Assembly (NCBI GenBank): GCA_964645005.1
Contig: CAZXYS010000006.1
Location: 4,741 to 68,740, forward strand
Length of the DNA stretch: 64,000 nt
Direction: 5' to 3'
DNA from: an uncultured Hyphomicrobiales bacterium
Lineage (GTDB): Bacteria; Bacteroidota; Ignavibacteria; Kapaibacteriales; UBA2268
The position numbers and the translations under genes are program-made. The notes below the pieces were generated by a model. It had not been told where the DNA came from. It made no database searches and saw only the letters and a program-made list of their open reading frames with translations. Shown here piece by piece: positions 18,963 to 53,368 of this stretch. Every line of letters begins with the position of its first letter. Within the stretch, counting starts at the first letter, position 1.

Positions 18963-21476
18963 ATGATGATCACAAAAAAATTAAATTGCTTACTCACTTC
19001 ATTAATATTAATTTTAATTTTCAGTTCAAACGCCTTCTCGGAAAACAAAAATGTAGAGCAATTCCAGTATCTTTCTCCCGTACCTGATGCTGTTTTTGTT
19101 TCACCATTTAATGATCTGATCATTAGATATGGTGAGGAGCTTGATGAATCAACCGTTAGCGCGGATCTTATCGAAGTGACTGCTTCGATTAGCGGCGTCC
19201 ACGATGGAGAAGTTATTTTACTGGAAGATAAGAAAACTATGCTCTTCCAGTTTTTCAACAGTTTCGAATATGATGATACCGTAACAGTATCATTGTTGCC
19301 GGGAATAAAGACTTCAGGCGGAGCTCCCGTACCGGAAATGACTTATACTTATTATGTATCAAGTTTCAGTTATTACTATGGGACACAAGCACCACCCGAT
19401 GATCCGACTGATAATGATATCCCTGATATTATGAAAGCAGGGGATGCAGGTAAAGTCAAAAATGACGAATTACTTTTTGACAAAACGGAATACCTCGAGA
19501 GCAGGCATCTCCCAGATGATTTTCCTCCAATGAAAGTAGATCGATACGGAGAACCCAACCCTGGATATTTGATGCTTACTCCTTTTGCCTGGAAAGATTC
19601 AGTTCTGGGTAATTATATCGTAATGATGGATAATTGGGGAACTCCTGTTTTTTATAAAAGCTATCCTGATTCCGTATTTAGCGCGGAATTCAAAATCCAT
19701 CCTAACGGTTATGTAACTTTTTTTGATGCAACTAAAAGGCACTTCGCTATTTATGACAGTTCCTTCAACAAAATCGGACACATAAAACATAGGAACGGTT
19801 ACCTGAACGATTTTCATGAACTTCTTGTCACTGAAGATAACCATAAATGGGTAATGACCTATGATCACCAGTGGGTGGATTTGACCGATTCACTCGAAGG
19901 GGGAATGCCAAACACCGAATTAGTTGGACTGATTATCCAGGAGCTTGATGAAAATGACAATGTTATCTTCCAATGGAGAAGCTGGGATAACTTTTCTATC
20001 TTTGATGCACATTTGCCAGGTGTGAGATATGATACCAATGCCTCAACTATTGATTATGTCCACGGCAATGCTATAGAAATTGAATCTGACACTGCTGTTC
20101 TTATATCCAGCAGAAATCTATCGGAGATAACAAAAATAGACCGTAGAACCGGGGAGATTATCTGGCGATTCGGTGGAAAGAACAATAGTTTCGATATTCA
20201 AAATGATGACAGAGTTCTTTCCTGGCAGCATGATTGCCGGCGATGGTCCAATGGCAATCTCTCTGCATTTGATAACGGTGTGCACCATGATAATCCTTAC
20301 TCCGGTGCTGTGGAATACAAAATTGATGAAGAAAATATGACGGCAGAATTGATATACAGACATATAATCGATGAAGATCATTTAGCTCGTGTTACGGGAA
20401 GTTCCAGGCACCTTGATAATGGCAATTTACTTGTAAGCTGGGGTTCTGCAAGATTTCCGAATATATCTGAGTATGATTCTCTTGGCAACAGAGTCCTGGA
20501 TGTTTCGTATCCTTCAATAAATTATAGAACTTATAGATATCCCTGGAAGACTACGCTATTCGGAACTGATATCGAGATGATTGATTACCAGAGTTTTGTT
20601 ATCGGCGATCCGGTTAAAAATAATATTACTTTGAGTACTGATTCATCGGATAACATTGAAATTAGCAGCTATCATACTAATTATGATGCTTTCAGTATAA
20701 CTGAAGATATCCCTCTGGATATTCCCGGAGAAGGTTCAACAGAAATTGAACTTATTTTTGATCCGCAGGAAAATGGATATTATGAAGATGTTCTAACCCT
20801 TAACCATGACTATGAGACATCTAGAATTGCCCGGCAGGTACATTTGAAAGCTATTGTTTTCAATAGTATGGATCCGGTAAGTTTAAGCTTCGAACCTCAG
20901 GATAGCTCCGAAAATGTACCGGTTGATAAGAAAATAGTGATTAATTTCTCCGAAGCTGTCCAAACCGAAGAAGGAAATAAATTAACACAATTAAATGCAG
21001 CCGGCTTTATTATGCTTGAAGACAGCGCCACCGGCGAAACTGTGCCTTTCTCCGCAACTATTTCCGGATTGAAAAAGACAATTACTGTTAAGCCTGACAA
21101 TCCTTTTGATAGTGCTTCAACTTATTATGTTGGTATCAAAGATGGATTAATGGATTACAGAGATGAAGCAGTAGTAGTTGACAGCGCTAAGTTTTCCACA
21201 CCGGAATATCCTTCCTCAATTTATGAGGAACCTGTCTCGGAAATAAAGCTTTATCCGAATCCGGCAAATGACCAAATCTATCTGGAAAATGAAAGTAATC
21301 TGCTCATTGAAAAGGTAGACATAGTGAATTCCTTTGGCAAAAAGGTCAGGCAATTACAAAATATAACCGGCACTCTCAATAAGATCGAAATGTCAGGTCA
21401 ATCTCCAGGTTTGTATTTTGTAAGGATTTTCACATTCGACGGCAAAATCTACAGATATAAATTTATCAAAAGGTGA
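18963..21476 (+). CDS. Arylsulfotransferase (ASST)-like beta-propeller protein with Ig-like domains and T9SS C-terminal sorting domain
   Basis: Central region IDRRTGEIIWRFGGKNNSFDIQNDDRVLSWQHDCRRWSNGNLSAFDNGVHH resembles the ASST family (PF05935) propeller. Signal peptide. C-terminal KLYPNPANDQIYLEN...GLYFVRIF matches a T9SS CTD. Confidence 0.55.
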   Translation: MMITKKLNCLLTSLILILIFSSNAFSENKNVEQFQYLSPVPDAVFVSPFNDLIIRYGEELDESTVSADLIEVTASISGVHDGEVILLEDKKTMLFQFFNSFEYDDTVTVSLLPGIKTSGGAPVPEMTYTYYVSSFSYYYGTQAPPDDPTDNDIPDIMKAGDAGKVKNDELLFDKTEYLESRHLPDDFPPMKVDRYGEPNPGYLMLTPFAWKDSVLGNYIVMMDNWGTPVFYKSYPDSVFSAEFKIHPNGYVTFFDATKRHFAIYDSSFNKIGHIKHRNGYLNDFHELLVTEDNHKWVMTYDHQWVDLTDSLEGGMPNTELVGLIIQELDENDNVIFQWRSWDNFSIFDAHLPGVRYDTNASTIDYVHGNAIEIESDTAVLISSRNLSEITKIDRRTGEIIWRFGGKNNSFDIQNDDRVLSWQHDCRRWSNGNLSAFDNGVHHDNPYSGAVEYKIDEENMTAELIYRHIIDEDHLARVTGSSRHLDNGNLLVSWGSARFPNISEYDSLGNRVLDVSYPSINYRTYRYPWKTTLFGTDIEMIDYQSFVIGDPVKNNITLSTDSSDNIEISSYHTNYDAFSITEDIPLDIPGEGSTEIELIFDPQENGYYEDVLTLNHDYETSRIARQVHLKAIVFNSMDPVSLSFEPQDSSENVPVDKKIVINFSEAVQTEEGNKLTQLNAAGFIMLEDSATGETVPFSATISGLKKTITVKPDNPFDSASTYYVGIKDGLMDYRDEAVVVDSAKFSTPEYPSSIYEEPVSEIKLYPNPANDQIYLENESNLLIEKVDIVNSFGKKVRQLQNITGTLNKIEMSGQSPGLYFVRIFTFDGKIYRYKFIKR

Positions 21477-21526
21477 TGAAATTGGAATTTCGGAGCTGTA
21501 AAAAATATTAATCTGCAATTCCTATA

Positions 21527-21665
21527 CATAATCAAACCGGATTTTGCATTAGGACATAAACAATCTCTTGTTCCCCCTCATCACCAGCCCTTCTCCCGCC
21601 GGGAGGAGGGTGTTAGTGATGAGGGAATTCTTATAATGAATTTTCTCATCTAACACTTTTGTAAG
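21527..21665 (+). repeat. MITE-like hairpin repeat, family 1, short copy A
   Basis: aacccggattttgcat...ccccctcatc.ccagcccttctcccgccgggag...gatgagggaattcttataatgaattttc. Related to copies at 24079-24262, 28780-28965 (reverse) and a partial copy at 53262-53320. Confidence 0.7.
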
Positions 21666-21889
21666 CAAAGGTCTCCCATAGGTTTATAAAAATCCATGGA
21701 TTATATAAGAATCCAATCCGCCCTTGCCACGCTTGAGCGTGGTTTCCGCTTGGCTATAACTGCGCTCGGACACCCCTCAAAGAGGGGAATTCAATCAGAT
21801 GTAACATCTGACGGGAAGTTCTGAGGTGAGTTAGCAGCTTTTTGCCACAAATACAATTTTTGTATTGTGAATCCGGGTTAAAAAATCCC

Positions 21890-21948
21890 CCTCTTTCTGC
21901 TTCATGAATTTTTAAAAGAGGGAGATAAAATTTAAAAAATTTTTAGAT
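21890..21948 (-). terminator. Rho-independent terminator of dxs
   Basis: On the minus strand: ctccctctttt...agaaagaggggga hairpin followed by a T-run, immediately 3' of the dxs stop. Confidence 0.45.
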
Positions 21949-23901
21949 TTATTTATAGCTGTGAACTGCTTCCGATTCTACCTTTTCAGGGATATTATAT
22001 AATTTTCTTACGTAAGAAGCTATACCCGCTGCATCCAAACCGAGTTCGTGATGCAGTTCTTCCTGCGTGCCGTGCTGGATTATTTTATCCGGTATGCCAA
22101 GGATATGCACTTCCGGTTTGAACTTCATATTTCTGTTCTGAGCATAATTCTCAAGAACAGCAGAACCGAATCCACCAATAGCCTGGGCATCCTCGACGGT
22201 GATTACTCTGTCAAAACGGACTGCTAATTCATCCAGCATCTTTCCGTCGATCGGTTTTACGAAGCGAGGATTGATCACTTCCGCAGAAACTCCATCTTTT
22301 TCAAGTTCTTCAGCGGCTTTGACTGCCTCATGGAGCATTTTTCCAAGCCCGAGTATAGCAATATCATCTCCCTCGCGGATTTTTTGGGATTTCCCAAGAG
22401 GTATTTCTTTCATTGGACCTTCCTTTACTCCCAAGCCTTCGCCACGAGGATAGCGGATTGCAGCCGGACCGCTTTTATAATGATAAATGGCGGAATAAAG
22501 CATGTCTCTCAATTCCTGTTCATTTGTCGGTGCCATAAGGATCATGCCCTGCACCACACGCAAATATGCAATATCCAGAACTCCGTGGTGTGTAGCTCCG
22601 TCGGCTCCTACAAGCCCGCCTCTGTCCAAGGCAAAGACTACGGGGAGCTTTTGCAGAGCAACATCATGCACGATGTGATCATACGCCCTTTGCAGGAAAG
22701 TTGAATATATGGCACAAACCGGCTTCATGCCCTGTTTTGCAAGCCCTGCTGCAAATGTAACAGCGTGTCCTTCAGCAATTCCTACATCAAATATCCTTTC
22801 AGGGAATTCCTCCTGAACAATATCAAGGCTTGTACCATCCGGCATTGCTGCTGTTATCCCGACAATTTTAGGATTCATTTTGCAAAGCTCGATCATGGCT
22901 TCGCCAAAAACCTTTTGATATTTTTTAGGTTTGTTGTTTTTGCCGGTTGATATTGCCTTACCGGAATCTTTATCGATCTTGCCGATAGCATGAAGAAATT
23001 TCGGGTCTTTCTCTGCCGGTGGATAGCCATAGCCTTTTTTTGTGATAGTGTGTAACAGGATTGGTCCGTTCATTTCTTTGATCAAATTGAACATCCGAAC
23101 CAGCTTCTGCACATTGTTGCCATTGTTGGGACCAAAATATTTAAAGCCGAAAGCTTCAAAAAGCATACCCGGTGTAACAACGGATTTGAAGCCTTTTTCA
23201 AATCTGGAGGCAACAAAGCGTATCCTGTCGCCGAGTTCATCCATCTTTCCGGTTAAATCCCAAATGTTGTCGCGAATTTTCTGTATCGGAGTCGATGCAA
23301 ATACCTCGTTGAAATAATTTGAAAGTGCCGAAACATTAGGTGCGATGGAAGCATCATTGTCATTAAGGACTACAGTCAGATTACGTTTCTGAACGCCGCA
23401 GTTATTCATAGCTTCAAAAGCAAGTCCTCCTGTCATAGCGCCATCGCCGATAACCGAAACCACACGGTAATCGTCTTCCTGTATATCGCGAGCTGCCGCC
23501 ATTCCGAGAGCAGCAGAGATACTTGTGCTTGCGTGACCGGCACCGAAGGTATCATATTCACTTTCGGTCGGTTTTAAAAAGCCGGATAAACCGCCTTTCT
23601 GTCTAATTGTATGTAGTTGATCCCTCCTGCCGGTGATTATCTTATGGGGATAACCCTGATGTCCGACATCCCAGATAAGCTTATCTGCAGGTGTGTCGTA
23701 AACATAGTGCAGAGCAACAGTGAGTTCCACAACTCCCAAACCGGCGCCAAAATGACCTCCGGTTTTAGTAATCGTTTCGATCAAATATTCGCGAACTTCA
23801 TCGCAAACTCTGGGTAACTCTGTAACCGGCAATTCTCTCAGATCTGCCGGTGAATTGATGTCAAACAAATATTTATAGTTGAACTTTTTTAAGTTTGCCA
23901 T
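21949..23901 (-). CDS. dxs: 1-deoxy-D-xylulose-5-phosphate synthase
   Basis: 650 aa. TPP-binding GDGAMTGGLAFEAMNN. N-terminal HxGxxLG-type motif (HFGAGLGVVELTVALHY). Transketolase-like C-terminal domain. Confidence 0.9.
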   Translation of the reverse strand: MANLKKFNYKYLFDINSPADLRELPVTELPRVCDEVREYLIETITKTGGHFGAGLGVVELTVALHYVYDTPADKLIWDVGHQGYPHKIITGRRDQLHTIRQKGGLSGFLKPTESEYDTFGAGHASTSISAALGMAAARDIQEDDYRVVSVIGDGAMTGGLAFEAMNNCGVQKRNLTVVLNDNDASIAPNVSALSNYFNEVFASTPIQKIRDNIWDLTGKMDELGDRIRFVASRFEKGFKSVVTPGMLFEAFGFKYFGPNNGNNVQKLVRMFNLIKEMNGPILLHTITKKGYGYPPAEKDPKFLHAIGKIDKDSGKAISTGKNNKPKKYQKVFGEAMIELCKMNPKIVGITAAMPDGTSLDIVQEEFPERIFDVGIAEGHAVTFAAGLAKQGMKPVCAIYSTFLQRAYDHIVHDVALQKLPVVFALDRGGLVGADGATHHGVLDIAYLRVVQGMILMAPTNEQELRDMLYSAIYHYKSGPAAIRYPRGEGLGVKEGPMKEIPLGKSQKIREGDDIAILGLGKMLHEAVKAAEELEKDGVSAEVINPRFVKPIDGKMLDELAVRFDRVITVEDAQAIGGFGSAVLENYAQNRNMKFKPEVHILGIPDKIIQHGTQEELHHELGLDAAGIASYVRKLYNIPEKVESEAVHSYK

Positions 23902-24078
23902 AGTATCCGTTTTTTAATGAACATATTGTGGTTGACTTAACTTTAGTTTTCTTGTGCCTGTTTCTTTTTAGATCGAACCAACAGTTAATTATACAATTTA
24001 CAAATTTTAGTGACGATTTATATAAGTTATATGTTTTAATGTTTTGTAATTAATTCGGATAACTGAAAAATTATTATG

Positions 24079-24262
24079 AACCCGGATTTTGCATCAGAAC
24101 AAAAACAATCTCTTATTCCCCCTCATCCTCAGCCCTTCTCCCGCCGGGAGGGGTGTAAGAATTTCTTTTTACTCTGAAAGTCCCTTCTCCACTTGGGAGA
24201 AGGGTTTTAGGAATGAGGGAATTCTTATAATGAATTTTCCGGGTTAATGCTATTTTTGTATT
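24079..24262 (+). repeat. MITE-like hairpin repeat, family 1, full-length copy B (~180 bp)
   Basis: Long imperfect palindrome ccctcatcctcagcccttctcccgccgggagg ... cccttctccacttgggagaagggttttaggaatgaggg. Lies in the dxs/pcm divergent intergenic region. Confidence 0.7.
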
Positions 24263-24399
24263 TTGAATTTGGGTTAATTCAAATTCATGCCTTTTGAGAA
24301 AAATAATTTGTATAATAGATCTAATATTTTTATAACTTTATCCTCTTTGTAAATAATTATCAAAAAAATAGTCATATTAATCAGTTCAAATAATGTAAA

Positions 24400-25149
24400 A
24401 TGTATGATATGACCCTATTAGAAAAAATTGGCAGCAAGGCTGTGCTATTCCTGTTTTTTCTGTCGAGTGTAATCAATTGCGGTAAGAGCAACGGCAATGG
24501 CGACAGTAATAGCTTCGAAAAACAGCGAATACAAATGGTGCAGGAGCAAATAAGAGCTCGTGGAATTTATGATGTGAAAATACTCGAAGCGATGCGAAAA
24601 GTTCCTCGTCATTTATTTGTACCGGAATCTTACAGAAACAGAGCCTACGGAGATTCTCCCCTTCCTATTGGAGAGGGACAGACAATATCCCAACCTTATA
24701 TCGTGGCTTTCATGTCGGAAAAGTTGAATCCGAAGAAAAATGAAAAAGTCCTTGAAATCGGCACTGGCTCAGGCTATCAGGCTGCAATTCTTGCCGAACT
24801 GTGCGACAGTGTTTTTTCCATCGAGATCTTTGAATCGCTGGGGAATAAAGCAAGGGGAACGCTCAATGAACTTGGCTGTGACAATGTTTTGGTCAAGATC
24901 GGCGACGGCTACAAAGGCTGGAAAGAACATGCCCCTTTTGATGCAATAATTGTTACCTGCTCGCCTTCTCATATCCCGGAACCTCTCAAGGAGCAGCTTG
25001 CCGAAGGGGGCAGAATGATAATCCCTGTCGGTGAAACATTTACCCAGAAATTAGTCCTGCTCACAAAGGAAGACGGAAAAATTACCAAAAATTCAGTTCT
25101 GCCGGTTCGCTTCGTACCGATGATCGATGACAGAGGTAAAAAATATTGA
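24400..25149 (+). CDS. pcm: Protein-L-isoaspartate O-methyltransferase with N-terminal lipoprotein-type signal
   Basis: MVQEQIRARGIYDVKILEAMRKVPRHLFVP...GEGQTISQPYIVAFM...VLEIGTGSGYQAAILAEL (SAM motif I). N-terminal hydrophobic segment ending in a Cys (LFLFFLSSVINCG). Confidence 0.85.
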   Translation: MYDMTLLEKIGSKAVLFLFFLSSVINCGKSNGNGDSNSFEKQRIQMVQEQIRARGIYDVKILEAMRKVPRHLFVPESYRNRAYGDSPLPIGEGQTISQPYIVAFMSEKLNPKKNEKVLEIGTGSGYQAAILAELCDSVFSIEIFESLGNKARGTLNELGCDNVLVKIGDGYKGWKEHAPFDAIIVTCSPSHIPEPLKEQLAEGGRMIIPVGETFTQKLVLLTKEDGKITKNSVLPVRFVPMIDDRGKKY

Positions 25150-25323
25150 TTTGACAAATATATAAGGTGTTAACATGAAAAAGCTATTGAGTGTTATTAT
25201 CTTATAAACTCTGATCTCCGGTAACAAAGAGTTAACGCAGCCTTAGCGATGATGAAGATACATTAGAAGCACGTGGATATTTAGGTATTTCATTAATCGG
25301 AAGGACGGCATTCCGTACTCGGG

Positions 25324-25701
25324 CTAAGGACTGACATTAGTGAGCCGGATTAGATGAGCCGGACATTCCCGGCAGTCTGAAGAACCAAAACCCTTTACCG
25401 GCACTTCGGAATTTTGTCGATTCAATAATTCTCCGTTTAGTTCACATTCAATCTTCTTTTTTGAGGGGAATTTCTTAATATCAATGATCTCAACATTGTC
25501 ATCAGCAAGTAGAAAGTCTATATGCCAGTGTTGTTTTTTGTCTTTCCGTTGATGACGTTGAACTCTCTTTTCCAGTCCTCTCATTGCACTGCCGGTATAT
25601 ACATATTTACCGGCAGGGAACCGGCATTGACCAAGTGAGCCAATTTTTACCTTGATTTCCTTTTTAATATTAATTATCAACTGATAGGCGCCGGAGTTCA
25701 T
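25324..25701 (-). CDS. DUF123 / GIY-YIG-superfamily small protein
   Basis: GAYQLIINI...GKYVYTGSAMRGLEKRVQRH...HWHIDFLL...GFGSSDCRECPAHL matches the DUF123 hallmark blocks. 4-nt overlap with the upstream SDR gene. Confidence 0.6.
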   Translation of the reverse strand: MNSGAYQLIINIKKEIKVKIGSLGQCRFPAGKYVYTGSAMRGLEKRVQRHQRKDKKQHWHIDFLLADDNVEIIDIKKFPSKKKIECELNGELLNRQNSEVPVKGFGSSDCRECPAHLIRLTNVSP

Positions 25702-26405
25702 TGATCTTTCTCTGGTTTCCAGTTTTTCATAAACAGGTCGAAAAGGAAATTAGGCAGTACCTTTACTAATTTTGTAGAAAAAGCCATGGGAAATGGGAAA
25801 CTGATTACTTGTTTTTTTCTTTGAATACCTTTTGCAATAATTTTTGCTGCCTTATCAGCTTCCATAAGAAAAGGCATGTGGAATTGATTCTTTGCTGTAA
25901 TGTTTGATTTTACAAATCCCGGTCTGATCGTGATAACTCTAATTCCATGTCTTTTCAATTCCACTCTGGCGGATTCCAGAATATATGCTGCGGCTGCTTT
26001 ACTCGCGCTGTAGGTTGACGAGCCTGGGAAGCCTCTGGCATCAGCTAAAGAACCTATACCTGCTATAATTCCTCCGCCTTGCTTTATCATAGCCGGAACT
26101 AAAAATTCCAAAGCGTAAACTATACCGTTAATATTAATATCCATCACTTTATGAAATTGGTCATTATTCCAACTTTGGAATAAATTATAGCCGCCAACTC
26201 CGGCATTGAGTATCGCCAGATCAATCCTTTCCATTATATCGAAAGCCGAATTGATAGTATCCCGAACTGCTTTCCTATCAGTTACATCGCATATTTTGTA
26301 ATGGGCTTTACCACCTTTTGAGCGTATCTTCTCACATACTTCAATGAGTGCTTTCTTGTCTCGGGCAGCCAAGAAAAGCTCGGCTCCCTGCGAGGCATAT
26401 TCCAT
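25698..26405 (-). CDS. Short-chain dehydrogenase/reductase (SDR), probably starting at a non-canonical ATT codon at 26459
   Basis: NAGVGG and YSASKAA (YxxxK) motifs. The cofactor motif TGGSKGIGKALA is encoded in-frame upstream of the first ATG, with no ATG/GTG/TTG between it and an in-frame TAA at 26481-26483. AGGTGG lies 10 nt upstream of the ATT at 26457-26459. Confidence 0.8.
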   Translation of the reverse strand: MEYASQGAELFLAARDKKALIEVCEKIRSKGGKAHYKICDVTDRKAVRDTINSAFDIMERIDLAILNAGVGGYNLFQSWNNDQFHKVMDININGIVYALEFLVPAMIKQGGGIIAGIGSLADARGFPGSSTYSASKAAAAYILESARVELKRHGIRVITIRPGFVKSNITAKNQFHMPFLMEADKAAKIIAKGIQRKKQVISFPFPMAFSTKLVKVLPNFLFDLFMKNWKPEKDQ

Positions 26406-26495
26406 TGCAAGCGCTTTGCCTATTCCTTTGGAACCGCCTGTAATAAAGACTTTTTTAATGTCGATAATTCCACCTAATATTTACCGGGATACTGA

Positions 26496-27707
26496 TTATC
26501 TCTTCTTCAATTTCATGAATTTTCTTTTTCCGACTTTGATCATTTTCTCTTCAGATAGATCAATATTATGACCGGGGTCACTGACTTTTTCCTCATCCAC
26601 GGAAACCGCATTCTGCAACAACAATGTCCGGGCTTGCTTCTTTGATGGCGCTAGACCTGTCTGAACCAGCATATCCGTAATATTGATCTCGTCTGAATCA
26701 ATTTTATACTCGGGGATATCATCAGGAATGCCTTTGTCCTGGAACATACGGTTGAATTCGTCGTGGGCTGATTTTGCGGCTTCTTTATCATAGTATAATT
26801 CAACAATTCGCATGGCTGTTTTGACTTTAGCATCACGTGGGTGGATAGTATTATTTTTCAAGCCGGCTTCCATTTCCGCTATTTCATCCTCGCCTGCGAA
26901 AGCTCCGTATCTGAAATATGGAATTATCAAATTGTCCGGTATAGACATTACTTTGCCGAACATATCTTTTGGCAATTCGGTGAGAGCTATGTAATTATCC
27001 AGAGATTTACTCATCTTCTCGACACCGCTGGTTCCTTCGAGTATAGGCATGGTGAGTATGCACTGGGCATCTTTATCGTATGCCTGTTGGACTTCGCGAG
27101 CCAGCAGGAGATTGAACTTCTGGTCAGTGCCGCCAAGCTCTACATCGGATTCTATTGCTGCGGAATCCATAGCCTGCGCCAGCGGATACAGAAACTCATG
27201 CAGGCTGATAGGCTGCCCTCCCTTATATCTCTTTTCGAAATCGTCACGCTCAAGTAACTGGGCAACCGTAACCTGGGCAGCAAGATTTATAACTTCGGCA
27301 AAGTTCATTTTTGAGAGCCACTCGGAGTTATAGCGTACCTCGAGATTATTTTTTGAAAGCACTGCAGTTGCCTGAGCAAGATAAGTCTCACCGTTGATCT
27401 TTGTTTCTTCCATGGTCAACTGTGGGCGGGTTTTATTCCTGCCGGAGGGGTCGCCGATCATAGCCGTAAAATCACCTATGATAAGCACTGCCTTATGCCC
27501 GAGATCCTGAAATTGCCTCATTTTTTGCAATACAACTGCATGCCCAAGATGTAGATCAGGCTTGCTGGGATCGCAGCCTAATTTTATGATGAGCGGTTTG
27601 TTATTTTTCTTTGAGCGTTCAAGCTTTTTCTCAAGTTCTTCTTCCGGCAGCAATTCAACTACACCGGATTTAATCACATCCATTTGCTCTTTTACCGATG
27701 GAACCAT
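26496..27707 (-). CDS. tyrS: Tyrosine--tRNA ligase
   Basis: Class I HIGH variant (PDLHLGHAVVL). KMSKS present (KMSKSLDNYI). C-terminal S4-like domain. 403 aa. Confidence 0.9.
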   Translation of the reverse strand: MVPSVKEQMDVIKSGVVELLPEEELEKKLERSKKNNKPLIIKLGCDPSKPDLHLGHAVVLQKMRQFQDLGHKAVLIIGDFTAMIGDPSGRNKTRPQLTMEETKINGETYLAQATAVLSKNNLEVRYNSEWLSKMNFAEVINLAAQVTVAQLLERDDFEKRYKGGQPISLHEFLYPLAQAMDSAAIESDVELGGTDQKFNLLLAREVQQAYDKDAQCILTMPILEGTSGVEKMSKSLDNYIALTELPKDMFGKVMSIPDNLIIPYFRYGAFAGEDEIAEMEAGLKNNTIHPRDAKVKTAMRIVELYYDKEAAKSAHDEFNRMFQDKGIPDDIPEYKIDSDEINITDMLVQTGLAPSKKQARTLLLQNAVSVDEEKVSDPGHNIDLSEEKMIKVGKRKFMKLKKR

Positions 27708-27872
27708 TTCTATATCCCAATTTTTAACATCAAAAAAACAAAATTAATAAATTTTCAGTATATTGATGAATTATGATTAGTAGTATTGCAAATAATCTAA
27801 TTTTGTTAAATACATAATTTTTGCAATATTAATAAATCTTAAAATTATTTTTAACAAAATTGGAAAATAACT

Positions 27873-28547
27873 ATGTGTGGTAGATTTGCGCTGTCGCCGC
27901 AGACTGGCGATATAGAGAAGCTGGTGCCCGGATTGCGGGTGGAAGTTGACATTCCGCCGCGGTATAATATTGCGCCGACGCAGGATGCAGCTTCAATTCT
28001 CAATGATGATCAGAAAGCGGTGAGTTACCTGCGCTGGGGGCTTATCCCATTCTGGGCGAAGGATCCGGCAATTGGCAATAGGATGATAAATGCCAGAGCG
28101 GAAACAGTTACGGAGAAACCGGCGTACAAAGGTCCGTTCAAGAAAAAGCGTTGTTTGGTGCTTGCTACGGGCTATTACGAATGGAAGAAAGAAGCGGGCA
28201 GCAAGAGGAAAATTCCTTATTTCATCAGGCTGAAGTCGCAAAAGCCGTTCACTTTTGCGGGGCTGTGGGATAACTGGACTGATGAGAACGGAAAGGATGT
28301 GCAGTCCTGCACCCTGATCACAACGGAAGCGAATGATGTTACGTCTGAAATACATCATCGGATGCCGGTCATTATTTCGCCGGAAGCGAGGATGGATTGG
28401 CTGGACAGCGTCGCTGCTGATGTAGAGAAACTTAGCAGCCTGCTGGTGCCCTACGAGGAGGAGCCGATGGAGGCTTATGAAGTTTCAGCGCTGGTGAATA
28501 ATCCGGGTAATGATACGCCGGAGTGTATCAAGCCGGTGGATGGGTGA
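27873..28547 (+). CDS. SOS response-associated peptidase (SRAP; YedK/HMCES family abasic-site processing protein)
   Basis: Begins MCGRF (catalytic Cys2). 224 aa. Conserved WGLIPFWAKD and ETVTEKPAYK blocks. Confidence 0.85.
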   Translation: MCGRFALSPQTGDIEKLVPGLRVEVDIPPRYNIAPTQDAASILNDDQKAVSYLRWGLIPFWAKDPAIGNRMINARAETVTEKPAYKGPFKKKRCLVLATGYYEWKKEAGSKRKIPYFIRLKSQKPFTFAGLWDNWTDENGKDVQSCTLITTEANDVTSEIHHRMPVIISPEARMDWLDSVAADVEKLSSLLVPYEEEPMEAYEVSALVNNPGNDTPECIKPVDG

Positions 28548-28779
28548 AAGATTAATTGGAGTGGTTCTTAAATCGTTATTGTCTATCCTTCGACATCGCC
28601 CAGCTAAAGCAGGATTTCGCTTCATAAAAAAAGTAGAGACATACCCCTGGTCTGTCACAAAAAAAAGGTTATACTTGGGTGGAGTTGAAGTGCGGCACGA
28701 TTTCCACAATTATGAAACAGCCTCATCTATAACATATTACTTTTTTATAAAAATTTTGGTATTTTTATCCCGGAAAATT

Positions 28780-28965
28780 CATTATAAGAATTCCCTCATC
28801 CCTAAATCCCTTTTCCCAAGTGTAGAAGGGACTTTCAGTGTAATAAGAAATTCTTACACCCTTCTCCCGCCGGGAGAAGGGCTGGGGATGAGGGGGAAAA
28901 GAGATTGTTTATGTTCTAATGCAAAAATCAGGGTTTAATGTAACATCCGGATTAAGATGACGCTT
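28780..28965 (-). repeat. MITE-like hairpin repeat, family 1, full-length copy C (inverted)
   Basis: Its reverse complement aligns along its length with copy B (aatccggatgttacat...ccccctcatccccagcccttctcccgccgggagaagggtgtaagaatttctt...gggatgagggaattcttataatgaattttccgg). Confidence 0.7.
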
Positions 28966-29034
28966 CTGAGACACCATCTTGGGAATAATGGAAATATTCT
29001 TAAATTTTATATAATGAAAAACTACGTCTACGTA

Positions 29035-32000
29035 CTATGGCAAAATAACTATCTTAGCCACAGATTTTCTTGATTGCTTATTTACGGATAAGAAATACAG
29101 CCCCGGCTGTAAATCATTTATTTTGGAAATGTTCACAGTCCTTGTATTTCGCCCTGAATCATAAAACCTGCTGCCGCTTGAATAGATCTCATTACCCATA
29201 GCATCCCTCAGTTTAATGTTAACGTATCCAGCCTCCGGATTTTCAAAAGTGACCATAAATATATCCACCGCCGGATTAGGATAGACTTTGAGATTTAAAT
29301 CTTTAGCGGAACTGTATTCCATCACCCCGGTGTACACCGAATTCTTTCTGCCCGGCGTGCCGTTCATTACGTACGATGCCTGCCACGACTCGGGCAGCGA
29401 ATTGTCCAGCCCCGGGTTCTTCAATTCCATTGTCAATCCGGTTTCAACACAGTTTCCCGGCCAGGGGGAAGAGGGCAGATATTCCACTTTGTCGACAAGC
29501 TCGTCATTGGAATCATATAATCTTACCGCATCATCAGTCCCAAATCCGTAAGTGAAATCCTTAGGATAATGCTCAACATTGGGATGCACACTCTCGAAAT
29601 TATTTATATCCCTGCAAATAACCATGTATTCATCACTTTTGATATTCGTTTCCTGGTCAAAAATGAAGATATGGGAATCATCGTCATCTTTAATCTTCCA
29701 GCCGCTGATATTGATATCGTAATCATCAGCATTGTACAGTTCAATCCAGTCTTTGCTGTCCCTTTCGTCGGGCGGAGACTTATACATTATTTCGTTTATG
29801 ATAATTTTGCCTTCATATTGATGGATTTTATCCTCGAATTCAGCTTTCAATGTGACATTCTCAGGTAAATTAACTTTTAACTGCGGCAAACGTGCTTCCA
29901 TAGTATCGGAGAATATGGAGCGATCGCTGATCCATCGCTTGAATTCCATGCCTTCCGGGGGGGTTGCTTCCAATTCAACCGGCACTCCCTGGAAATAGAT
30001 TCCATTCCACGGAAACTCGTCAATGTTAATTGAATTCACTCTGATCTCACCGCCAGTGTGATTTGCATTTATTTCAAGTTTTGCTGTTCCGGTTAAGTTG
30101 AAATACTCAGCATAATGATCAGGTAAATAATTTAAACGAAGCTCATAGAATTTTTTTATTGACTCAATTTCATCTTCCCAATCAATAGCTGCTGAATCCC
30201 ACCTTTTTCTGTGCCTAATGATTTGTGGTCTGATAATATTTGCCAGACTATCTACTATTGGTACAACATTTTCAGCCTGCAGTACCGTGTTCATTAAATC
30301 CGCACTTTTATTGATGAATTTATGCCTAAACACCATGTTTTCCAAAAACTTACTAAAAATTGTCGGGAACGGCCATTTTTGTTTTAAAGTAAACTTAAGC
30401 ATATTATGGTTAAGCATGTATGCCCGGGAAGTACCGTCAAGATCATTTAGAATCCACCGCCATTTCCCATCTAATGAATCTGAGCGCCAATATTTTAGAT
30501 TTTTATAGGGCCAATCAAGATTTGTATTATAGAATTCAATGATGGCGTATTCCATAATGTTTTCAATATCTACACTTCTATTAATAAATTCATAGGAACC
30601 TGGTTTGTTAAAATCCATAGTTTCAATACTGTCATACATATTAAATAACTTAATTCCATCGCCATGTAATCTACCGTTAGCATCTTCATACAAATCAATT
30701 GTGTTTTTTGGGATGTCATATTTTAGACTGATTTGATCTTCATGTATTCTCTCTCTTATATTTTCGATCCCCCAGTATTCGCCATTCAGGAAAACAATGG
30801 CGGGGCTAAAAGCCATTGCATCAAGATTGTGGAAATCTTCTGCCAAAACAGCACAAATCCCATCTCTTATTATGCTGCTTTTCCATTCCGTACCGCCGTT
30901 ACGAACAATTAGGTGATCATATTTGTCCATTCCTTTATCCCCGAAAAAGGGATAATCAAAATATTTTTCACCGTAAATACTTCGCGCGTATAATCTCACT
31001 GATTTTTGCGGATGATATCTTGATGCATGACCGTGTACTCTCGCCCCCGCCCCCGATTCATACTTTAATTCCTTATCATCTCCCCATAACTCGAAATTGA
31101 CCGGTATTTCAATATCTTTGAATAAGTTATCTTTCACGAAAATGCCGTTCTCCTTGTTCCATAGATCCTCCGGGTCAGCAGACAAAGATATTACCTGCAA
31201 CGGAATGTCTTCATCAATGAAGTAAGTGTTGGATACTATCCTGCCGGGTAAAAGCGCATCATTGAATGCTCTGGCTCTTATAAGTGTCGTCGTATCGATT
31301 GTGATCGTTTCGCCGGTATATCGTATCGAGCCGCTGTCAGGCTCAGAGCCGTCTTTTGTATAATAGATATTAGCTTTATCATCATTGACACTTAATGTTA
31401 CCGTTTTATTCCCTTCGAACCAGCCGCCTTTATTTGAAAATATAGGGTCTGCGGTTCTTCCGGGGCAGCCTTGTAAATTTTCTTTTTCTGGTGTTGGATT
31501 CGGGCAAAATGAAAATTCGCCTTCTCCATCGGGGAATCTACTATAGGAAATATCCGTTATCTGATCGGTAAATATGACTTTATCTATTAATTCACCTCTC
31601 GAATTCCATAGAAATAACGATTCTGATTGTCTGTTAAGTTTAAAATCCGTATGTAATTCTCGTGATAAATAGCTTCTGCCTTCTTCGCCGGCGTTGAATT
31701 CAATGTGTTTGAATTTCTCAGGTGAAAAATCTTCCCCGTTGATTTTCAATTCCGAAACCGTTAGTTTTGACATTTGATCTCTATTACCGCTTCCAAAGGC
31801 TATACCAAGATAGATCGTGCCTTCCGGCATTGGAAGATTAATTTCAGCGCCGCAGTACCAGTGTACTCCGTCAGCATTAATGTATCCAAAAAGAGAATCC
31901 CCCCTGCGCTTTAACTTTATGTAGTAACTTGGATATTCCACTTCGACATTCCAAAAAGGCACTATCTTGGGCCATTCTCTTTCTCTGGTCCTGAAATGGA

Positions 32001-32538
32001 ATTTGTAGCCCTTCATTCGCGGGCTTTCGCATACCATAGCGCCATACCTGCAATCTTCAGTCAATTTCTCCCGTACCATCAGACCTGCTTTTGCATTATC
32101 CGCAGCGAAGCGCATAGCATTGAATTTTGCCTCTATTTCAAAATCCCCCTGAATTTCAATATAGTCAAACCTGATGCCGTCAGTTCCATCATAATATCCA
32201 AAGCCCCAGCCGGAGGACTCCATGATATAATTATCCGTGCCTCTTCTGTCCAGTCCCGAAGCATAAACCATCAATCTCTCACCCGGTTCAACTCTTCTGT
32301 CAGGAATTTCCCATGCTTCCTCAAAATTATTATTATCGCTTACCCTGTATCCCTTTAAATTGACCGGACTATCACCGTTGTTGTATAGCTCAAACCAGTC
32401 AGGGGTCTCCATATTTTCATCATAGTAGCAGCTATGGTTGGAGGCTGCGATTTCGTTGATTTTGATATCGGCTGCTGTACTGTCAATTACAATAACGATC
32501 AATGATAGGAATAGTACAAATCTCCGCTTTAATTTCAT
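29035..32538 (-). CDS. CotH kinase-family protein flanked by lamin-tail domains, with T9SS C-terminal sorting domain (LTD-CotH-LTD-CTD), paralog 1
   Basis: N-terminal LTD (IKINEIAASNHSCYYDENMETPDWFELYNNGDSPVNLKGYRVSDN). Central CotH-like region (LIVRNGGTEW...VFLNGEYWGIENIRE...WRWILNDLDGT). Second LTD (IINEIMYKSPPDERDSKDWIELYNADDYDINISGWKIKDDD). C-terminal KVYPNPAVDIFMVTFEN...GLYFLSV CTD. Confidence 0.7.
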   Translation of the reverse strand: MKLKRRFVLFLSLIVIVIDSTAADIKINEIAASNHSCYYDENMETPDWFELYNNGDSPVNLKGYRVSDNNNFEEAWEIPDRRVEPGERLMVYASGLDRRGTDNYIMESSGWGFGYYDGTDGIRFDYIEIQGDFEIEAKFNAMRFAADNAKAGLMVREKLTEDCRYGAMVCESPRMKGYKFHFRTREREWPKIVPFWNVEVEYPSYYIKLKRRGDSLFGYINADGVHWYCGAEINLPMPEGTIYLGIAFGSGNRDQMSKLTVSELKINGEDFSPEKFKHIEFNAGEEGRSYLSRELHTDFKLNRQSESLFLWNSRGELIDKVIFTDQITDISYSRFPDGEGEFSFCPNPTPEKENLQGCPGRTADPIFSNKGGWFEGNKTVTLSVNDDKANIYYTKDGSEPDSGSIRYTGETITIDTTTLIRARAFNDALLPGRIVSNTYFIDEDIPLQVISLSADPEDLWNKENGIFVKDNLFKDIEIPVNFELWGDDKELKYESGAGARVHGHASRYHPQKSVRLYARSIYGEKYFDYPFFGDKGMDKYDHLIVRNGGTEWKSSIIRDGICAVLAEDFHNLDAMAFSPAIVFLNGEYWGIENIRERIHEDQISLKYDIPKNTIDLYEDANGRLHGDGIKLFNMYDSIETMDFNKPGSYEFINRSVDIENIMEYAIIEFYNTNLDWPYKNLKYWRSDSLDGKWRWILNDLDGTSRAYMLNHNMLKFTLKQKWPFPTIFSKFLENMVFRHKFINKSADLMNTVLQAENVVPIVDSLANIIRPQIIRHRKRWDSAAIDWEDEIESIKKFYELRLNYLPDHYAEYFNLTGTAKLEINANHTGGEIRVNSINIDEFPWNGIYFQGVPVELEATPPEGMEFKRWISDRSIFSDTMEARLPQLKVNLPENVTLKAEFEDKIHQYEGKIIINEIMYKSPPDERDSKDWIELYNADDYDINISGWKIKDDDDSHIFIFDQETNIKSDEYMVICRDINNFESVHPNVEHYPKDFTYGFGTDDAVRLYDSNDELVDKVEYLPSSPWPGNCVETGLTMELKNPGLDNSLPESWQASYVMNGTPGRKNSVYTGVMEYSSAKDLNLKVYPNPAVDIFMVTFENPEAGYVNIKLRDAMGNEIYSSGSRFYDSGRNTRTVNISKINDLQPGLYFLSVNKQSRKSVAKIVILP

Positions 32539-38894: not shown

Positions 38895-39274
38895 ATGAGC
38901 TTGTTATGATTGACTCAAGCTGCTGGATAGAGTATCTAAGAAATAGTGATCAAAAAATTGCTGATACCGTTGTTGATTTAATACAAAATCATCAGGCATG
39001 TATTTGTGGCATTATTGAAATGGAGATCGTACAAGGTATTCGGAATAAAAAACAAGCTGAATTAGTGTCTAATCTCTTCGATATACTCAAATATTATACT
39101 ATTGTTAGAGAAGATTTCATTAATGCCGGGAAAAGAATAATTGAAATGAAGAAAAAAGGTATTATAGTTGCTACTTCCGATTGCCTTATAGCTGAAATCT
39201 GTATAAAAAATAATCTTAAACTCTACACGAAAGATAAAGATTTTAATTACTTTCAAAAACTTAAACTTTATTAA
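38891..39274 (+). CDS. vapC: PIN-domain toxin (VapC family ribonuclease)
   Basis: 127 aa. MIDSSCWIEYL (first acidic residue), EMEIVQG, and ATSDCLIAEICIKNNLKLYTKDKDF (C-terminal acidic residues) match PIN domain topology. Confidence 0.75.
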   Translation: MNELVMIDSSCWIEYLRNSDQKIADTVVDLIQNHQACICGIIEMEIVQGIRNKKQAELVSNLFDILKYYTIVREDFINAGKRIIEMKKKGIIVATSDCLIAEICIKNNLKLYTKDKDFNYFQKLKLY

Positions 39275-39333
39275 ACCCATATTTTGCAATAGAATAAACA
39301 TATATTAGAATAAATAACTTAATCCTAAGAACT

Positions 39334-39389
39334 AAACCACCCCTTCTTTCCCCCGCCTTAGTAAGGAGGGGATACAGGGGTGGTTTTTC
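39334..39389 (+). terminator. Hairpin terminator after vapC
   Basis: aaaccacccc ... ggggtggttttt palindrome followed by a T-run. Confidence 0.5.
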
Positions 39390-39570
39390 TAATTCTTTTA
39401 AAGGCACTATGTTCGTAAAAGTGAGTAGTTATAATGAAATATCCGGGTTTAACTCAATAAATTTATATTCACCATTATGTTACGAATATCGTAATAACAT
39501 TTTCCTTACAAAATATTAAAATTCTACCCCCGTCGAAATATTAAATTTTTCCATAAATACAAGGCATACA

Positions 39571-46322: not shown

Positions 46323-46342
46323 ATTATCAATTTCAGCAGGTA

Positions 46343-53261: not shown

Positions 53262-53320
53262 ATTTAGACGAACCGCCCTCATTTAGGGATGAGGGAATTC
53301 TTCTAATGAATTTTCAGGGC
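53262..53320 (+). repeat. MITE-like repeat family 1, partial copy D
   Basis: ccctcatttagggatgagggaattcttctaatgaattttcaggg matches the 3' arm of copies A-C. Confidence 0.55.
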
Positions 53321-53368
53321 TTATATGTTTTATTCAGTAAACTGAATCTTAAGATTGACTTCTATTAC

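What the first reader, a model, noticed from the sequence alone, without database searches (positions are those of the whole stretch)
21527..28965. ~180-bp MITE-like hairpin repeat family in at least four intergenic copies
Copies sit at 21527-21665 (short form missing ~70 internal bp), 24079-24262, 28780-28965 (inverted) and a partial copy at 53262-53320. All share an aacccggattttgcat head and a long imperfect palindrome (ccctcatcc.cagcccttctcccgccgggag ... cccttctcc.cttgggagaagggttttagg.atgaggg). None encodes a protein. The head, the palindrome, the internal-deletion derivative and the mixed orientations fit a non-autonomous mobile element. All copies are intergenic; two lie in terminator or convergent positions and one (24079-24262) is in the dxs/pcm divergent promoter region. 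They could affect transcript termination or stability.
Basis: seen in the sequence. Interest (0 to 1): 0.5.

Follow-up and report, generated by a model that had tools for sequence, protein, structure and literature searches.

The report
BoxC-type triplex repeats in MITE-like shell
The repeats are real, but their GC-rich palindrome is a local version of a known, very widespread bacterial repeat (E. coli BoxC, also called PIT or triplex motif) carried inside short AT-rich arms that look like a miniature transposon; this is a modest extension of something known, not a new kind of element.

Summary
The window holds five related non-coding elements: two full copies of about 170 nt (24079-24247 +, 28767-28938 -), one single-hairpin form (21534-21645), one stub (53276-53321), and a new divergent member (39271-39452) that shares only the termini.

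The GC-rich core is not specific to this lineage. It is a 10-triad variant of the BoxC / PIT / TMECO / HPG1-2 motif: a C-rich arm, a G-rich arm, then a second G-rich block that can form an intrastrand triplex or a G-quadruplex. Its 23-nt signature occurs in more than 120 stretches of species-representative genomes from about ten phyla, and in 10 viral contigs.

The AT-rich arms end in imperfect inverted repeats (TTAAACCCGGA...TCCGGGTTTAA). The same head recurs next to the same core in another Bacteroidota MAG.

The MITE reading is only partly supported. I found no clear target-site duplication, no transposase in the window and no empty site. Terminator or promoter roles are not supported. The host is an FCB-group bacterium, probably Kapabacteria-like. 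Novelty: a new variant of a known kind. Interest is low to moderate.

The parts
24079..24247 (+). Full-length element c2 (169 nt). Left arm: AACCCGGATTTTGCAT...AACAATCTCTTATTCC. Core A: CCCTCATCCTCAGCCCTTCTCCCgccGGGAGGGG, a reversed triplex motif that is degenerate in this copy. AT-rich spacer. Core B: CCCTTCTCCacttGGGAGAAGGGttttaGGAATGAGGG. Right arm: AATTCTTATAATGAATTTTCCGGGTTAA.
   Evidence: Folds as an outer stem plus two inner hairpins. Perfect 8-nt terminal inverted repeat. Lies between divergent dxs and pcm.
28767..28938 (-). Full-length element c3 (172 nt), inverted relative to c2 and 93% identical to it. A degenerate second copy of the head (AATCCGGATGTTACAT) abuts it at 28938-28953.
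   Evidence: (I1, I4, I6-I8). Lies between convergent SRAP and CotH/T9SS genes.
21534..21645 (+). Single-hairpin form c1 (112 nt), with the same arms. The core is one hairpin flanked by both outer-stem halves: CCCTCATCAC...GTGATGAGGG. The A/T pair in that stem is a double change that keeps pairing. The right terminus has diverged and lacks CCGGG.
   Evidence: It is about 51 nt shorter than c2/c3. The junction lies in the 13-16 nt direct repeat GGGAGAAGGGTKT that both inner hairpins share.
53276..53321 (+). Stub c4 (46 nt): only the outer stem, closed on itself (CCCTCAT-TTA-GGGATGAGGG), plus the right arm. It has no left arm.
39271..39452 (+). Divergent member c5 (182 nt). It has the same termini (TTAAACCCATATTTTGCAATAGAA ... 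TTATAATGAAATATCCGGGTTTAA) but an unrelated GC-rich hairpin core (AAACCACCCC...GGGGTGGTTT).
   Evidence: 16 of 22 terminal positions match as an inverted repeat.
28859..28894 (+). Perfect class II purine-motif intrastrand-triplex candidate inside c3: CCCTTCTCCC-gcc-GGGAGAAGGG-CTG-GGGATGAGGG. It has 10 allowed triads and no mismatch. It is also a canonical G-quadruplex pattern.
   Evidence: No such site in 60 shuffles of the window.
24182..24219 (+). Triplex-motif candidate inside c2: CCCTTCTCCa-ctt-GGGAGAAGGG-TTTTA-GGAATGAGGG, with one mismatch in each of two blocks.
21575..21610 (-). Triplex-motif candidate inside c1: CCCTCCTCCC-ggc-GGGAGAAGGG-CTG-GTGATGAGGG, with one mismatch in each of two blocks.

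Best explanation
The window carries a small family of non-coding dispersed repeats, each made of two modules.

(1) Core. The GC-rich core is an inverted doublet of a BoxC/PIT/TMECO-type motif; in c1 it is a single hairpin flanked on both sides. The motif is a C-rich arm, a G-rich arm and a second G-rich block (CCCTTCTCCC - loop - GGGAGAAGGG - CTG or TTTTA - GGGATGAGGG). As single-stranded DNA this can form a hairpin, a purine-motif triplex or a G-quadruplex. The motif class is known and occurs across bacterial phyla. In the doublet the two outer G/C blocks pair with each other, giving a three-way junction.

(2) Shell. Lineage-specific AT-rich arms end in imperfect inverted repeats (TTAAACCCGGAtTTTgCAT ... 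ATGAAtTTTCCGGGTTTAA).

Most likely the whole unit of about 170 nt behaves as a non-autonomous mobile element: a MITE-like shell with a structured cargo. It would be moved in trans by an enzyme encoded elsewhere in the genome. It lands in AT-rich intergenic DNA and then decays. The stub c4 looks like such a truncation. The single-hairpin form c1 could come from slippage between the repeated hairpin arms, but it could equally be the ancestral form.

What is shown: the repeat family, its anatomy, the identity of the core with the known motif class, intergenic placement, lack of strand preference, and the independence of termini and core.

What is inferred: mobilisation through the termini, the deletion mechanism, and the absence of any host function.

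The confidence of 0.55 is for the whole statement. It is about 0.9 for the identity of the core and about 0.45 for mobilisation through the termini.
For: Family and anatomy:
- Copies and boundaries.

The core belongs to the known motif class:
The phyla include Chloroflexota, Cyanobacteria, Alpha-, Beta- and Gammaproteobacteria, Planctomycetota, Bacteroidota, Acidobacteriota, Verrucomicrobiota, Armatimonadota, Myxococcota and CPR.
- It also occurs in 10 viral contigs.
- 116 of 133 instances carry the hairpin partner GGGAGAAGGG, which the search pattern did not require. 37 form the same outer-stem doublet with a TTA-type motif.
- Published descriptions match. BoxC = PIT = TMECO has the pattern CCCTCNCCC-N3-6-GGGNGAGGG-N3-GGGNGAGGG, with loop types TTA and CCG. 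Inverted doublets always pair one of each type. The motif is always intergenic with no strand bias, and palindromic doublets often lose internal pieces while keeping a hairpin (PMC4666352).
- The same sequences were described as the HPG1/HPG2 G4-hairpin-duplex switch (PMC5100583).
- The E. coli hrpB-mrcB doublet was read directly.

Triplex potential in the window:
- My scan finds only three candidates in 64 kb, all inside the copies, against none in 60 shuffles.

Placement:
- Instances in other genomes are 74% intergenic, against 13% for random positions.
- Orientation counts are 26 same/same, 26 opposite/opposite, 20 between convergent genes and 7 between divergent genes.

Shell as a separate module:
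- c5 keeps the termini with a different core.
- L087, a Bacteroidota MAG, has the head TTAAACCGGATTTTG 51 nt upstream of a single-hairpin core like c1.
- Two NCBI-derived predicted proteins are read-through translations of further copies.
Against: - No consistent target-site duplication.
- The inverted termini are short. They are degenerate in c1 and c3 and absent on one side of c4.
- No transposase or RAYT in the window.
- No empty site and no genome-wide copy count could be obtained. The element-specific tail has no exact match in 185,579 species genomes, and the JGI metagenome scan gave only two chance matches.
- The Logan contigs break about 30 nt inside c2 and c3. A 31-mer shared between those two copies explains this, so the breaks do not prove further copies.
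- For E. coli BoxC no link to mobile elements was found (PMC4666352).
- The single-hairpin form could be ancestral rather than a deletion product, since L087 has that form.
Confidence: 0.55

Rival explanations
1. A BoxC/BIME-like mosaic repeat that no transposase moves through its ends. The GC core would be the unit that spreads or is maintained, by hairpin-specific ssDNA transposition of the REPIN/RAYT type, by gene conversion, or by template switching at replication forks. The AT-rich arms would be co-amplified flanking sequence.
For: - The core keeps its primary sequence across phyla while the flanks differ between genomes.
- The inverted doublet of two slightly different units mirrors REPIN architecture and the E. 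coli A+B doublets.
- There is no TSD.
- A double change in the outer stem of c1 (C-G to A-T) keeps the palindrome. Templated quasi-palindrome correction would produce this.
Against: - c5 shares the termini but not the core.
- L087 shares the head as well as the core, at a similar spacing (51 nt, against 42 nt in c2).
- Similarity among copies ends exactly at the short inverted repeats.
- The core has no GTAG-type tag, and the window has no Y1 transposase.
Confidence: 0.25
2. A host-serving DNA structural switch (hairpin, triplex or G-quadruplex) that modulates replication, recombination or local supercoiling. It would act as a hotspot of local genome instability, as proposed for E. coli TMECO.
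For: - c3 contains a perfect 10-triad triplex and G4 pattern.
- Published work shows triplex and G4 formation in vitro and raised local variability around E. coli TMECO sites (PMC4666352, PMC5100583).
- The motif is depleted between divergent genes, 7 against 20 between convergent genes.
Against: - Most window copies have lost the G-runs or triads. Only one of the possible motifs is perfect, two have mismatches and the rest fail the scan. That argues against selection for the structure here.
- In E. coli the triplex was not detected in duplex DNA or in vivo (PMC4666352).
Confidence: 0.1
3. An RNA-level element: a transcription terminator, a 3'-UTR stabiliser or a small RNA.
For: - Very stable folds as RNA on either strand.
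- Two copies lie between convergent genes.
Against: - No T-run after the stems, and the terminator scan calls nothing inside the copies.
- No Rfam family at the gathering thresholds, and none credible at E up to 10.
- Element orientation relative to flanking genes is inconsistent in the window and unbiased in 79 intergenic cases elsewhere.
- One copy sits between divergent promoters.
- E. coli PIT elements showed no promoter or terminator activity (cited in PMC4666352).
Confidence: 0.05

Closest known systems
E. coli BoxC = PIT elements = TMECO intrastrand triplex motif = HPG1/HPG2 G4-hairpin-duplex switch (Bachellier 1990s; Hoyne & Maher 2000, 2002; Holder et al. 2015, PMC4666352; Kaplan et al. 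2016, PMC5100583)
   Same: - Three-block C-arm / G-arm / second G-block architecture with allowed purine-motif triads.
- Two loop-2 types: TTA-like and CCG/CTG-like.
- Inverted doublets that combine one of each type.
- Strictly intergenic, with no strand bias.
- Very high sequence conservation with variable hairpin loops.
- Shorter single-hairpin forms that still fold occur alongside the doublets.
- Canonical G4 pattern on the G-rich strand.
   Different: - Stems are 10 nt (CCCTTCTCCC / GGGAGAAGGG / GGGATGAGGG) instead of 9 nt (CCCTCNCCC / GGGNGAGGG), so the published literal pattern is not matched.
- The doublet here is 'divergent': the third-strand blocks lie outside and pair as an outer stem. 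The E. coli hrpB-mrcB doublet is 'convergent', with those blocks in the centre.
- The host is an AT-rich FCB-group bacterium.
- The motif sits inside conserved AT-rich arms with terminal inverted repeats.
MITEs (for example Correia/NEMIS, Nezha, Chunjie, RUP). This comparison is from general knowledge and was not tested against those sequences.
   Same: - Size under 200 nt and non-coding.
- Intergenic, in both orientations.
- Terminal inverted repeats and strong fold-back structure.
- Family members that share termini but differ inside.
- Shorter and truncated forms (c1, c4).
   Different: - No demonstrable target-site duplication.
- Perfect TIRs are only 8-11 nt.
- No cognate IS identified.
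- The interior is a pan-bacterial motif, not sequence derived from an IS.
REP / BIME / REPIN elements mobilised by RAYT (Y1) transposases. This comparison is from general knowledge.
   Same: - Short GC-rich imperfect palindromes.
- Inverted doublets of two non-identical units forming a larger hairpin.
- Intergenic and multi-copy.
   Different: - No GTAG or CGTC tag.
- No RAYT in the window.
- REP sequences are species-specific, whereas this core is nearly identical across phyla.
Repetitive G4/triplex elements of Methanomicrobiaceae (Chashchina et al. 2021, PMC8044849)
   Same: - Intergenic repeated G4 pattern with an adjacent complementary C-tract, in hairpin/triplex/G4 equilibrium.
- Enriched between tail-to-tail genes and rare between head-to-head genes. 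My counts show the same, 20 against 7.
   Different: - They are archaeal.
- The C-tract lies 3' of the G-rich part rather than 5'.
- The sequences are unrelated.

Membership tests
BoxC / PIT / TMECO triplex motif | Three consecutive blocks Y - loop (3-6) - R - loop (about 3) - H on one strand. Y pairs with R, and H lies antiparallel to R with only G*G.C, A*A.T and T*A.T triads, at most one mismatch. | tested here: met
   One search finds three instances: 28859-28894 (perfect, 10 triads), 24182-24219 and 21575-21610 (one mismatch in each of two blocks). Loop 2 is 3-5 nt. No such site in 60 shuffles.
BoxC / PIT / TMECO triplex motif | The literal published pattern CCCTCNCCC N3-6 GGGNGAGGG N3 GGGNGAGGG. 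| tested here: not met
   The window blocks are CCCTTCTCCC / GGGAGAAGGG / GGGATGAGGG, each one A.T position longer. This is a sequence variant, not TMECO sensu stricto.
BoxC / PIT / TMECO triplex motif | Always intergenic, with no strand bias. | tested here: met
   All five window copies are intergenic. In other genomes 93 of 125 instances are intergenic, against 13% for random positions, with 26 co-oriented and 26 anti-oriented.
BoxC / PIT / TMECO triplex motif | Two loop-2 types (TTA and CCG); inverted doublets combine one of each. | tested here: met
   In c2 and c3, core A has CTGA/CTG and core B has TTTTA/ATTTA. 37 of 133 instances elsewhere pair the CYG-type unit with a TTR-type unit. However, the orientation of the doublet differs from the E. 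coli example.
BoxC / PIT / TMECO triplex motif | Forms a triplex or G4 as single-stranded DNA in vitro. | not testable with these tools
   Only sequence compatibility was checked.
MITE | Short, non-coding and multi-copy. | tested here: met
   Elements are 46-182 nt, with five copies in 64 kb. No Pfam-bearing ORF overlaps them. ORF 28510-28938 reads through c3 and is probably spurious, but it was not tested against Pfam. The genome-wide count is not obtainable.
MITE | Terminal inverted repeats at the exact limits of the repeated unit. | tested here: inconclusive
   Perfect over 8 nt in c2 and 8 nt in c5, with 15-16 of 22 positions matching overall. Degenerate in c3, lost on the right of c1, and c4 has no left end.
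MITE | Target-site duplication. | tested here: not met
   TA or TTAA flanks both ends only in c5, and c3 is one mismatch away. c2 and c1 show none. With five old copies, 6-9% diverged, this is weak negative evidence.
MITE | A cognate autonomous element with the same termini. | not testable with these tools
   None of the 39 window ORFs of at least 150 aa qualifies. The rest of the genome could not be reached.
MITE | Presence/absence polymorphism (empty sites). | not testable with these tools
   All Logan contigs come from the same strain and break in the elements. The nearest dxs homologues are 67-68% identical.
REP / REPIN (RAYT-associated) | Conserved GTAG/CGTC-type tag next to the palindrome, and a RAYT gene. 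| tested here: not met
   The copies have no such tag. The window has no Y1 transposase. RAYT absence applies to the window only.
Intrinsic terminator | A GC-rich stem followed directly by a T-run. | tested here: not met
   The terminator scan of 21000-29500 reports nothing inside c1, c2 or c3.
Any Rfam RNA family | A match at the gathering score. | tested here: not met
   0 matches in the window. At E up to 10 there are only sub-threshold chance hits.

The most novel reading that the evidence does not exclude
The BoxC/triplex-motif doublet may itself be a pan-bacterial mobile module, REPIN-like and moved as a single-stranded hairpin by an enzyme not yet identified. Here it would be caught as 'cargo' inside an unrelated MITE shell in an AT-rich genome, where its borders are unusually sharp. 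That would explain why a 23-nt sequence is nearly identical from Chloroflexota to Legionella to phages. It would also give a handle on how these motifs spread, which the papers read here leave unexplained.
Probability: 0.12. Interest if true: 0.65.

Novelty: new variant of a known kind. Interest (0 to 1): 0.3.

Why it matters
BoxC/PIT/triplex-motif repeats have been known for about 30 years, and the papers read here (2015, 2016, 2021) give no accepted function or dispersal mechanism. This window contributes three small points.

1. It shows a 10-triad sequence variant in an FCB-group (Kapabacteria-like) genome. The same 23-nt signature occurs in at least ten phyla and in viral contigs.
2. The motif can sit inside a longer unit with its own inverted termini. 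Those termini also occur with a different core (c5) and in a second Bacteroidota genome (L087), so core and shell are separable modules.
3. A practical point: these elements break short-read assemblies, and they generate spurious ORF calls such as P0001 and P0002.

None of this changes what is known about bacterial repeats. It mainly shows that the 'MITE' is largely a known motif in a local wrapper.

Tried and rejected
- **Element-specific tail in public collections.** The exact 26-nt tail has 0 hits in genome contigs. A 20-nt version in metagenome contigs gave only two chance or coding matches.
- **BLAST of c2.** Against plasmids there was one 32-nt core hit, in an Aeromonas chromosome record with no annotation. 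Against phages there was nothing.
- **Rfam.** Nothing at gathering thresholds, and nothing credible at E up to 10.
- **Literature search with the window's own 9-10-mers.** Only primer noise. The search with the related CCCTCACCC/GGGAGAGGG variants found the key paper.
- **Translated-ORF trick.** Searching read-through translations of the element found two predicted proteins from NCBI contigs, but their DNA and accessions could not be retrieved.
- **Empty-site search.** Exact-protein look-ups of dxs, pcm, SRAP and the hydrolase next to c5 all returned contigs from one study and one strain. For dxs, pcm and SRAP the contig ends lie about 30 nt inside c2/c3 (L001 also ends inside c1; L002 and L003 end outside any element). 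The hydrolase contigs end 80-95 nt inside c5. I first read these breaks as evidence for extra copies. I rejected that, because c2 and c3 share an exact 31-mer.
- **dxs homologue search.** It aimed to find relatives for synteny comparison. The nearest are 67-68% identical, too far for comparing intergenic DNA.
- **G-U wobble asymmetry.** In outer stems of other genomes CCCTCAtCCCC pairs with GGGGTGAGGG, which could hint at an RNA strand. I did not pursue it, because orientation relative to genes is unbiased and the window copies use Watson-Crick pairs.
- **Integron attC, CRISPR, group II intron and hammerhead readings.** Considered from memory and dropped, because their defining motifs are absent from the sequence.

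Full report
**1. Observation**

The four reported copies are real. The 15-mer GATGAGGGAATTCTT occurs with 0-1 mismatch exactly four times; all other hits have 3 mismatches. The repeat finder links the copies through direct family D5/D9 and inverted pairs I1 and I3-I8.

Alignments give sharper limits:
- c1: 21534-21645 (+)
- c2: 24079-24247 (+)
- c3: 28767-28938 (-)
- c4: 53276-53321 (+)

Identities are c2/c3 93%, c1/c3 94% and c1/c2 91%. The short form lacks about 51 nt, not about 70.

Searching for the head and the tail separately turned up a fifth element at 39271-39452. It has the same termini, TTAAACCCATATTTTGCAATAGAA ... TTATAATGAAATATCCGGGTTTAA. Its GC-rich hairpin core is unrelated.

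**2. Anatomy**

A full copy reads as follows:
- left arm: (TT)AAACCCGGATTTTGCATyAGAACAwAAACAATCTCTT
- core A: CCCTCATCCnCAG-CCCTTCTCCC-gcc-GGGAGAAGGG
- an AT-rich spacer of about 28 nt
- core B: CCCTTCTCC-actt-GGGAGAAGGG-(t/a)TTTA-GGrATGAGGG
- right arm: AATTCTTATAATGAATTTTCCGGGTT(TAA)

The outer blocks CCCTCATCC and GGATGAGGG pair with each other, and each CCCTTCTCCC/GGGAGAAGGG pair forms an inner hairpin. The result is a three-way junction. The full c2 copy folded as RNA gives -66 kcal/mol with z = -5 on either strand; the cores folded as DNA give z -3.5 to -5.2.

- c1 has one hairpin flanked by both outer blocks.
- c4 has only the outer stem, closed on itself, plus the right arm (DNA z only -1.75).

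**3. Context and host**

- dxs and pcm are confirmed.
- c1 and c3 lie between convergent genes, c2 between divergent genes, and c4 and c5 between co-directional genes.
- Five window proteins carry T9SS C-terminal sorting domains.
- GC content is 0.33-0.43.
- The best named dxs homologues, at 64-66% identity, are labelled Kapabacteria.

The host is therefore an FCB-group bacterium, probably Kapabacteria-like. No ORF of at least 150 aa in the window is a transposase or Y1/RAYT protein.

**4. The core is a known, pan-bacterial motif**

The element-specific tail has no exact match in 185,579 species genomes and only chance matches in JGI metagenomes. The core behaves very differently.

- CCCTTCTCCCGCCGGGAGAAGGG followed by CCGGGGATGAGGG occurs in a GC-rich viral contig.
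- The 23-nt signature CCCTCATCnnCnGCCCTTCTCCC occurs in 10 viral contigs.
The hosts are Chloroflexota, Cyanobacteria, Alpha-, Beta- and Gammaproteobacteria (including Aeromonas, Legionella and Ectothiorhodospira), Planctomycetota, Bacteroidota, Acidobacteriota, Verrucomicrobiota, Armatimonadota, Myxococcota and a CPR lineage.
- Of 133 instances, 116 have the hairpin partner GGGAGAAGGG (at most one change) after a loop of variable length, although the pattern did not demand it.
- 37 are followed by an inverted, related unit (CCCCTCTCCC-loop-GGGAGAGGGG-TTr-GGGTGAGGG), giving the same outer-stem doublet as in the window. 16 form the opposite, convergent doublet.

A literature search with the related 9-mers led to Holder et al. 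2015 (PMC4666352). This is the BoxC repeat of E. coli, rediscovered as PIT elements (Hoyne & Maher 2000, 2002) and as the triplex motif TMECO.

What that paper reports:
- The pattern is CCCTCNCCC N3-6 GGGNGAGGG N3 GGGNGAGGG, with type A (TTA) and type B (CCG) second loops.
- E. coli K-12 has 23 copies, always intergenic and without strand bias.
- Inverted doublets always combine A and B.
- 3610 copies were found in 262 proteobacterial genomes, and related GC-rich motifs are abundant in cyanobacteria.
- The triplex forms in vitro from single strands but was not seen in duplex DNA or in vivo.
- No promoter or terminator activity was found.
- The motif is associated with local sequence variability.
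- In palindromic doublets, small internal deletions usually leave a hairpin.

Kaplan et al. 2016 (PMC5100583) describe the same sequences as HPG1/HPG2, a G-quadruplex-hairpin-duplex switch. Chashchina et al. 2021 (PMC8044849) describe archaeal analogues enriched between tail-to-tail genes.

I also read the E. coli hrpB-mrcB doublet directly.

**5. Membership test on the window**

A scan of both strands of the 64 kb looked for the class II purine-motif architecture, with stems of at least 8 nt and at most one mismatch per block. It finds three sites, all inside the copies:
- 28859-28894: perfect, 10 triads, loop 2 CTG
- 24182-24219: loop 2 TTTTA
- 21575-21610

None appears in 60 shuffles.

The blocks are one A.T position longer than the published literal pattern, so this is a sequence variant, not TMECO sensu stricto. 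The doublet orientation (third-strand blocks outside) is the reverse of the E. coli example, although both orientations occur in other genomes.

Most of the possible motifs in the five copies have lost G-runs or triads. That argues against selection for triplex or G4 formation in this genome.

**6. Function**

- Crude gene calls around the 125 instances on loci of at least 3 kb put 74% in intergenic DNA, against 13% for random positions.
- Orientation relative to neighbouring genes is 26 same/same, 26 opposite/opposite, 20 convergent and 7 divergent. There is no strand preference, and promoter-containing spacers are mildly avoided.
- In the window, no terminator-like site is called inside the copies and promoter-like sites are at shuffle level.
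- There is no Rfam match.

A strand-specific RNA role is therefore unlikely. A DNA-level, largely neutral or selfish element is the better reading.

**7. Is it a MITE?**

For:
- Similarity among copies stops at short inverted repeats. AACCCGGA/TCCGGGTT is perfect in c2 and TTAAACCC/GGGTTTAA is perfect in c5. About 15-16 of 22 terminal positions match.
- c5 keeps the termini with a different interior.
- L087, a Bacteroidota MAG, has TTAAACCGGATTTTG 51 nt upstream of a single-hairpin core of the c1 type and a recognisably related tail. It was the only such head next to a core in about 1 Mb of fetched loci.
- Two predicted proteins from NCBI contigs are read-through translations of further copies.

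Against, or untestable:
- There is no consistent target-site duplication.
- The termini are degenerate in c1 and c3.
- No transposase lies in the window.
- The rest of the genome and any close relative are out of reach.
- All Logan contigs come from one strain. For dxs, pcm and SRAP several end about 30 nt inside c2 and c3 (L001 also ends inside c1; L002 and L003 end at about 21763, outside any element). The shared 31-mer of c2 and c3 explains the breaks, so they do not show extra copies. Contigs next to c5 end 80-95 nt inside it.

The single-hairpin c1 could be a slippage deletion between the 13-16-nt direct repeat GGGAGAAGGGTKT. It could equally be the ancestral form, since L087 has that form.

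**8. Verdict**

The element is a dispersed, probably mobile, non-coding repeat, but its palindrome is a variant of the long-known BoxC/PIT/triplex-motif class, and the MITE features are suggestive, not demonstrated.

My confidence:
- about 0.9 that the core belongs to that class functionally and architecturally
- about 0.45 that the 170-nt unit is mobilised through its inverted termini

Novelty: a new variant of a known kind. Interest: about 0.3.

Noticed in passing
window 46258-46326, 46652-46681, 57065-57088, 59357-59421: A second, unrelated small repeat family. These are hairpins of the type GTCAyCCTTCGACTCCGCTCAGGATGAC, in both orientations and sometimes as inverted pairs, all in intergenic DNA (D16, I2, I17, I25).
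   Followed up: partly
window 15103-15128 and 28598-28623: A third small repeat: 26 nt, 96% complementary (GAAGCGAAATCCTGCTTTAGCAGGGC). One copy lies just downstream of the UDP-glucose dehydrogenase gene. The other lies between the SRAP stop codon and c3 (I13).
   Followed up: no
window 29035-36188: Tandem pair of paralogous genes of about 1170 aa (CotH kinase, lamin-tail and T9SS sorting domains). DNA repeats with a 3.6-kb period are up to 96% identical over 300 nt, which suggests recent duplication or gene conversion (D1-D4).
   Followed up: partly
window 54937-59237: Two adjacent paralogous S9 prolyl-oligopeptidase genes with PD40 propellers. DNA repeats with a 2.24-kb period are 70-78% identical (D10, D13, D15).
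   Followed up: no
window about 21716-21790: Two independent Logan contigs (L002, L003) both end at about window 21763. This is a hairpin-rich stretch downstream of dxs (CCACGCTtgAGCGTGG, CCCCTCaaaGAGGGG) that is not part of c1. It may be another repeat or a point of strain variation.
   Followed up: no
L006, L013, L014, L015 (viral contigs): The triplex-motif core occurs in GC-rich phage contigs. Several copies sit directly upstream of start codons, so that the G-rich arm (GGGAGAAGGGAG or GATGAGGGAG) lies at Shine-Dalgarno distance. The 2015 paper reported no link of the E. coli motif to phages.
   Followed up: no
L027, L043, L083, L110, L135: In other genomes the same core occurs in tandem or clustered arrays with their own conserved flanks. 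Examples: a 53-nt period in a Chloroflexota MAG, a 156-nt period in flavobacterium SCB49, 7 copies in 8 kb in a Sedimenticolaceae MAG, and 2 copies 398 nt apart in Legionella moravica. The core therefore appears as a module inside different lineage-specific repeats.
   Followed up: partly
window 28510-28938 (+); P0001, P0002; L140 850-1104: Gene callers produce spurious ORFs that read straight through these elements, with peptides such as ...PHPQPFSRREKG... and ...KIHYKNSLIPK....
   Followed up: partly
window 39150-39273: The DNA just upstream of c5 looks like the 3' end of a small gene ending ...KDKDFNYFQKLKLY*. From memory it may be a PIN/VapC-like toxin; this was not tested.
   Followed up: no
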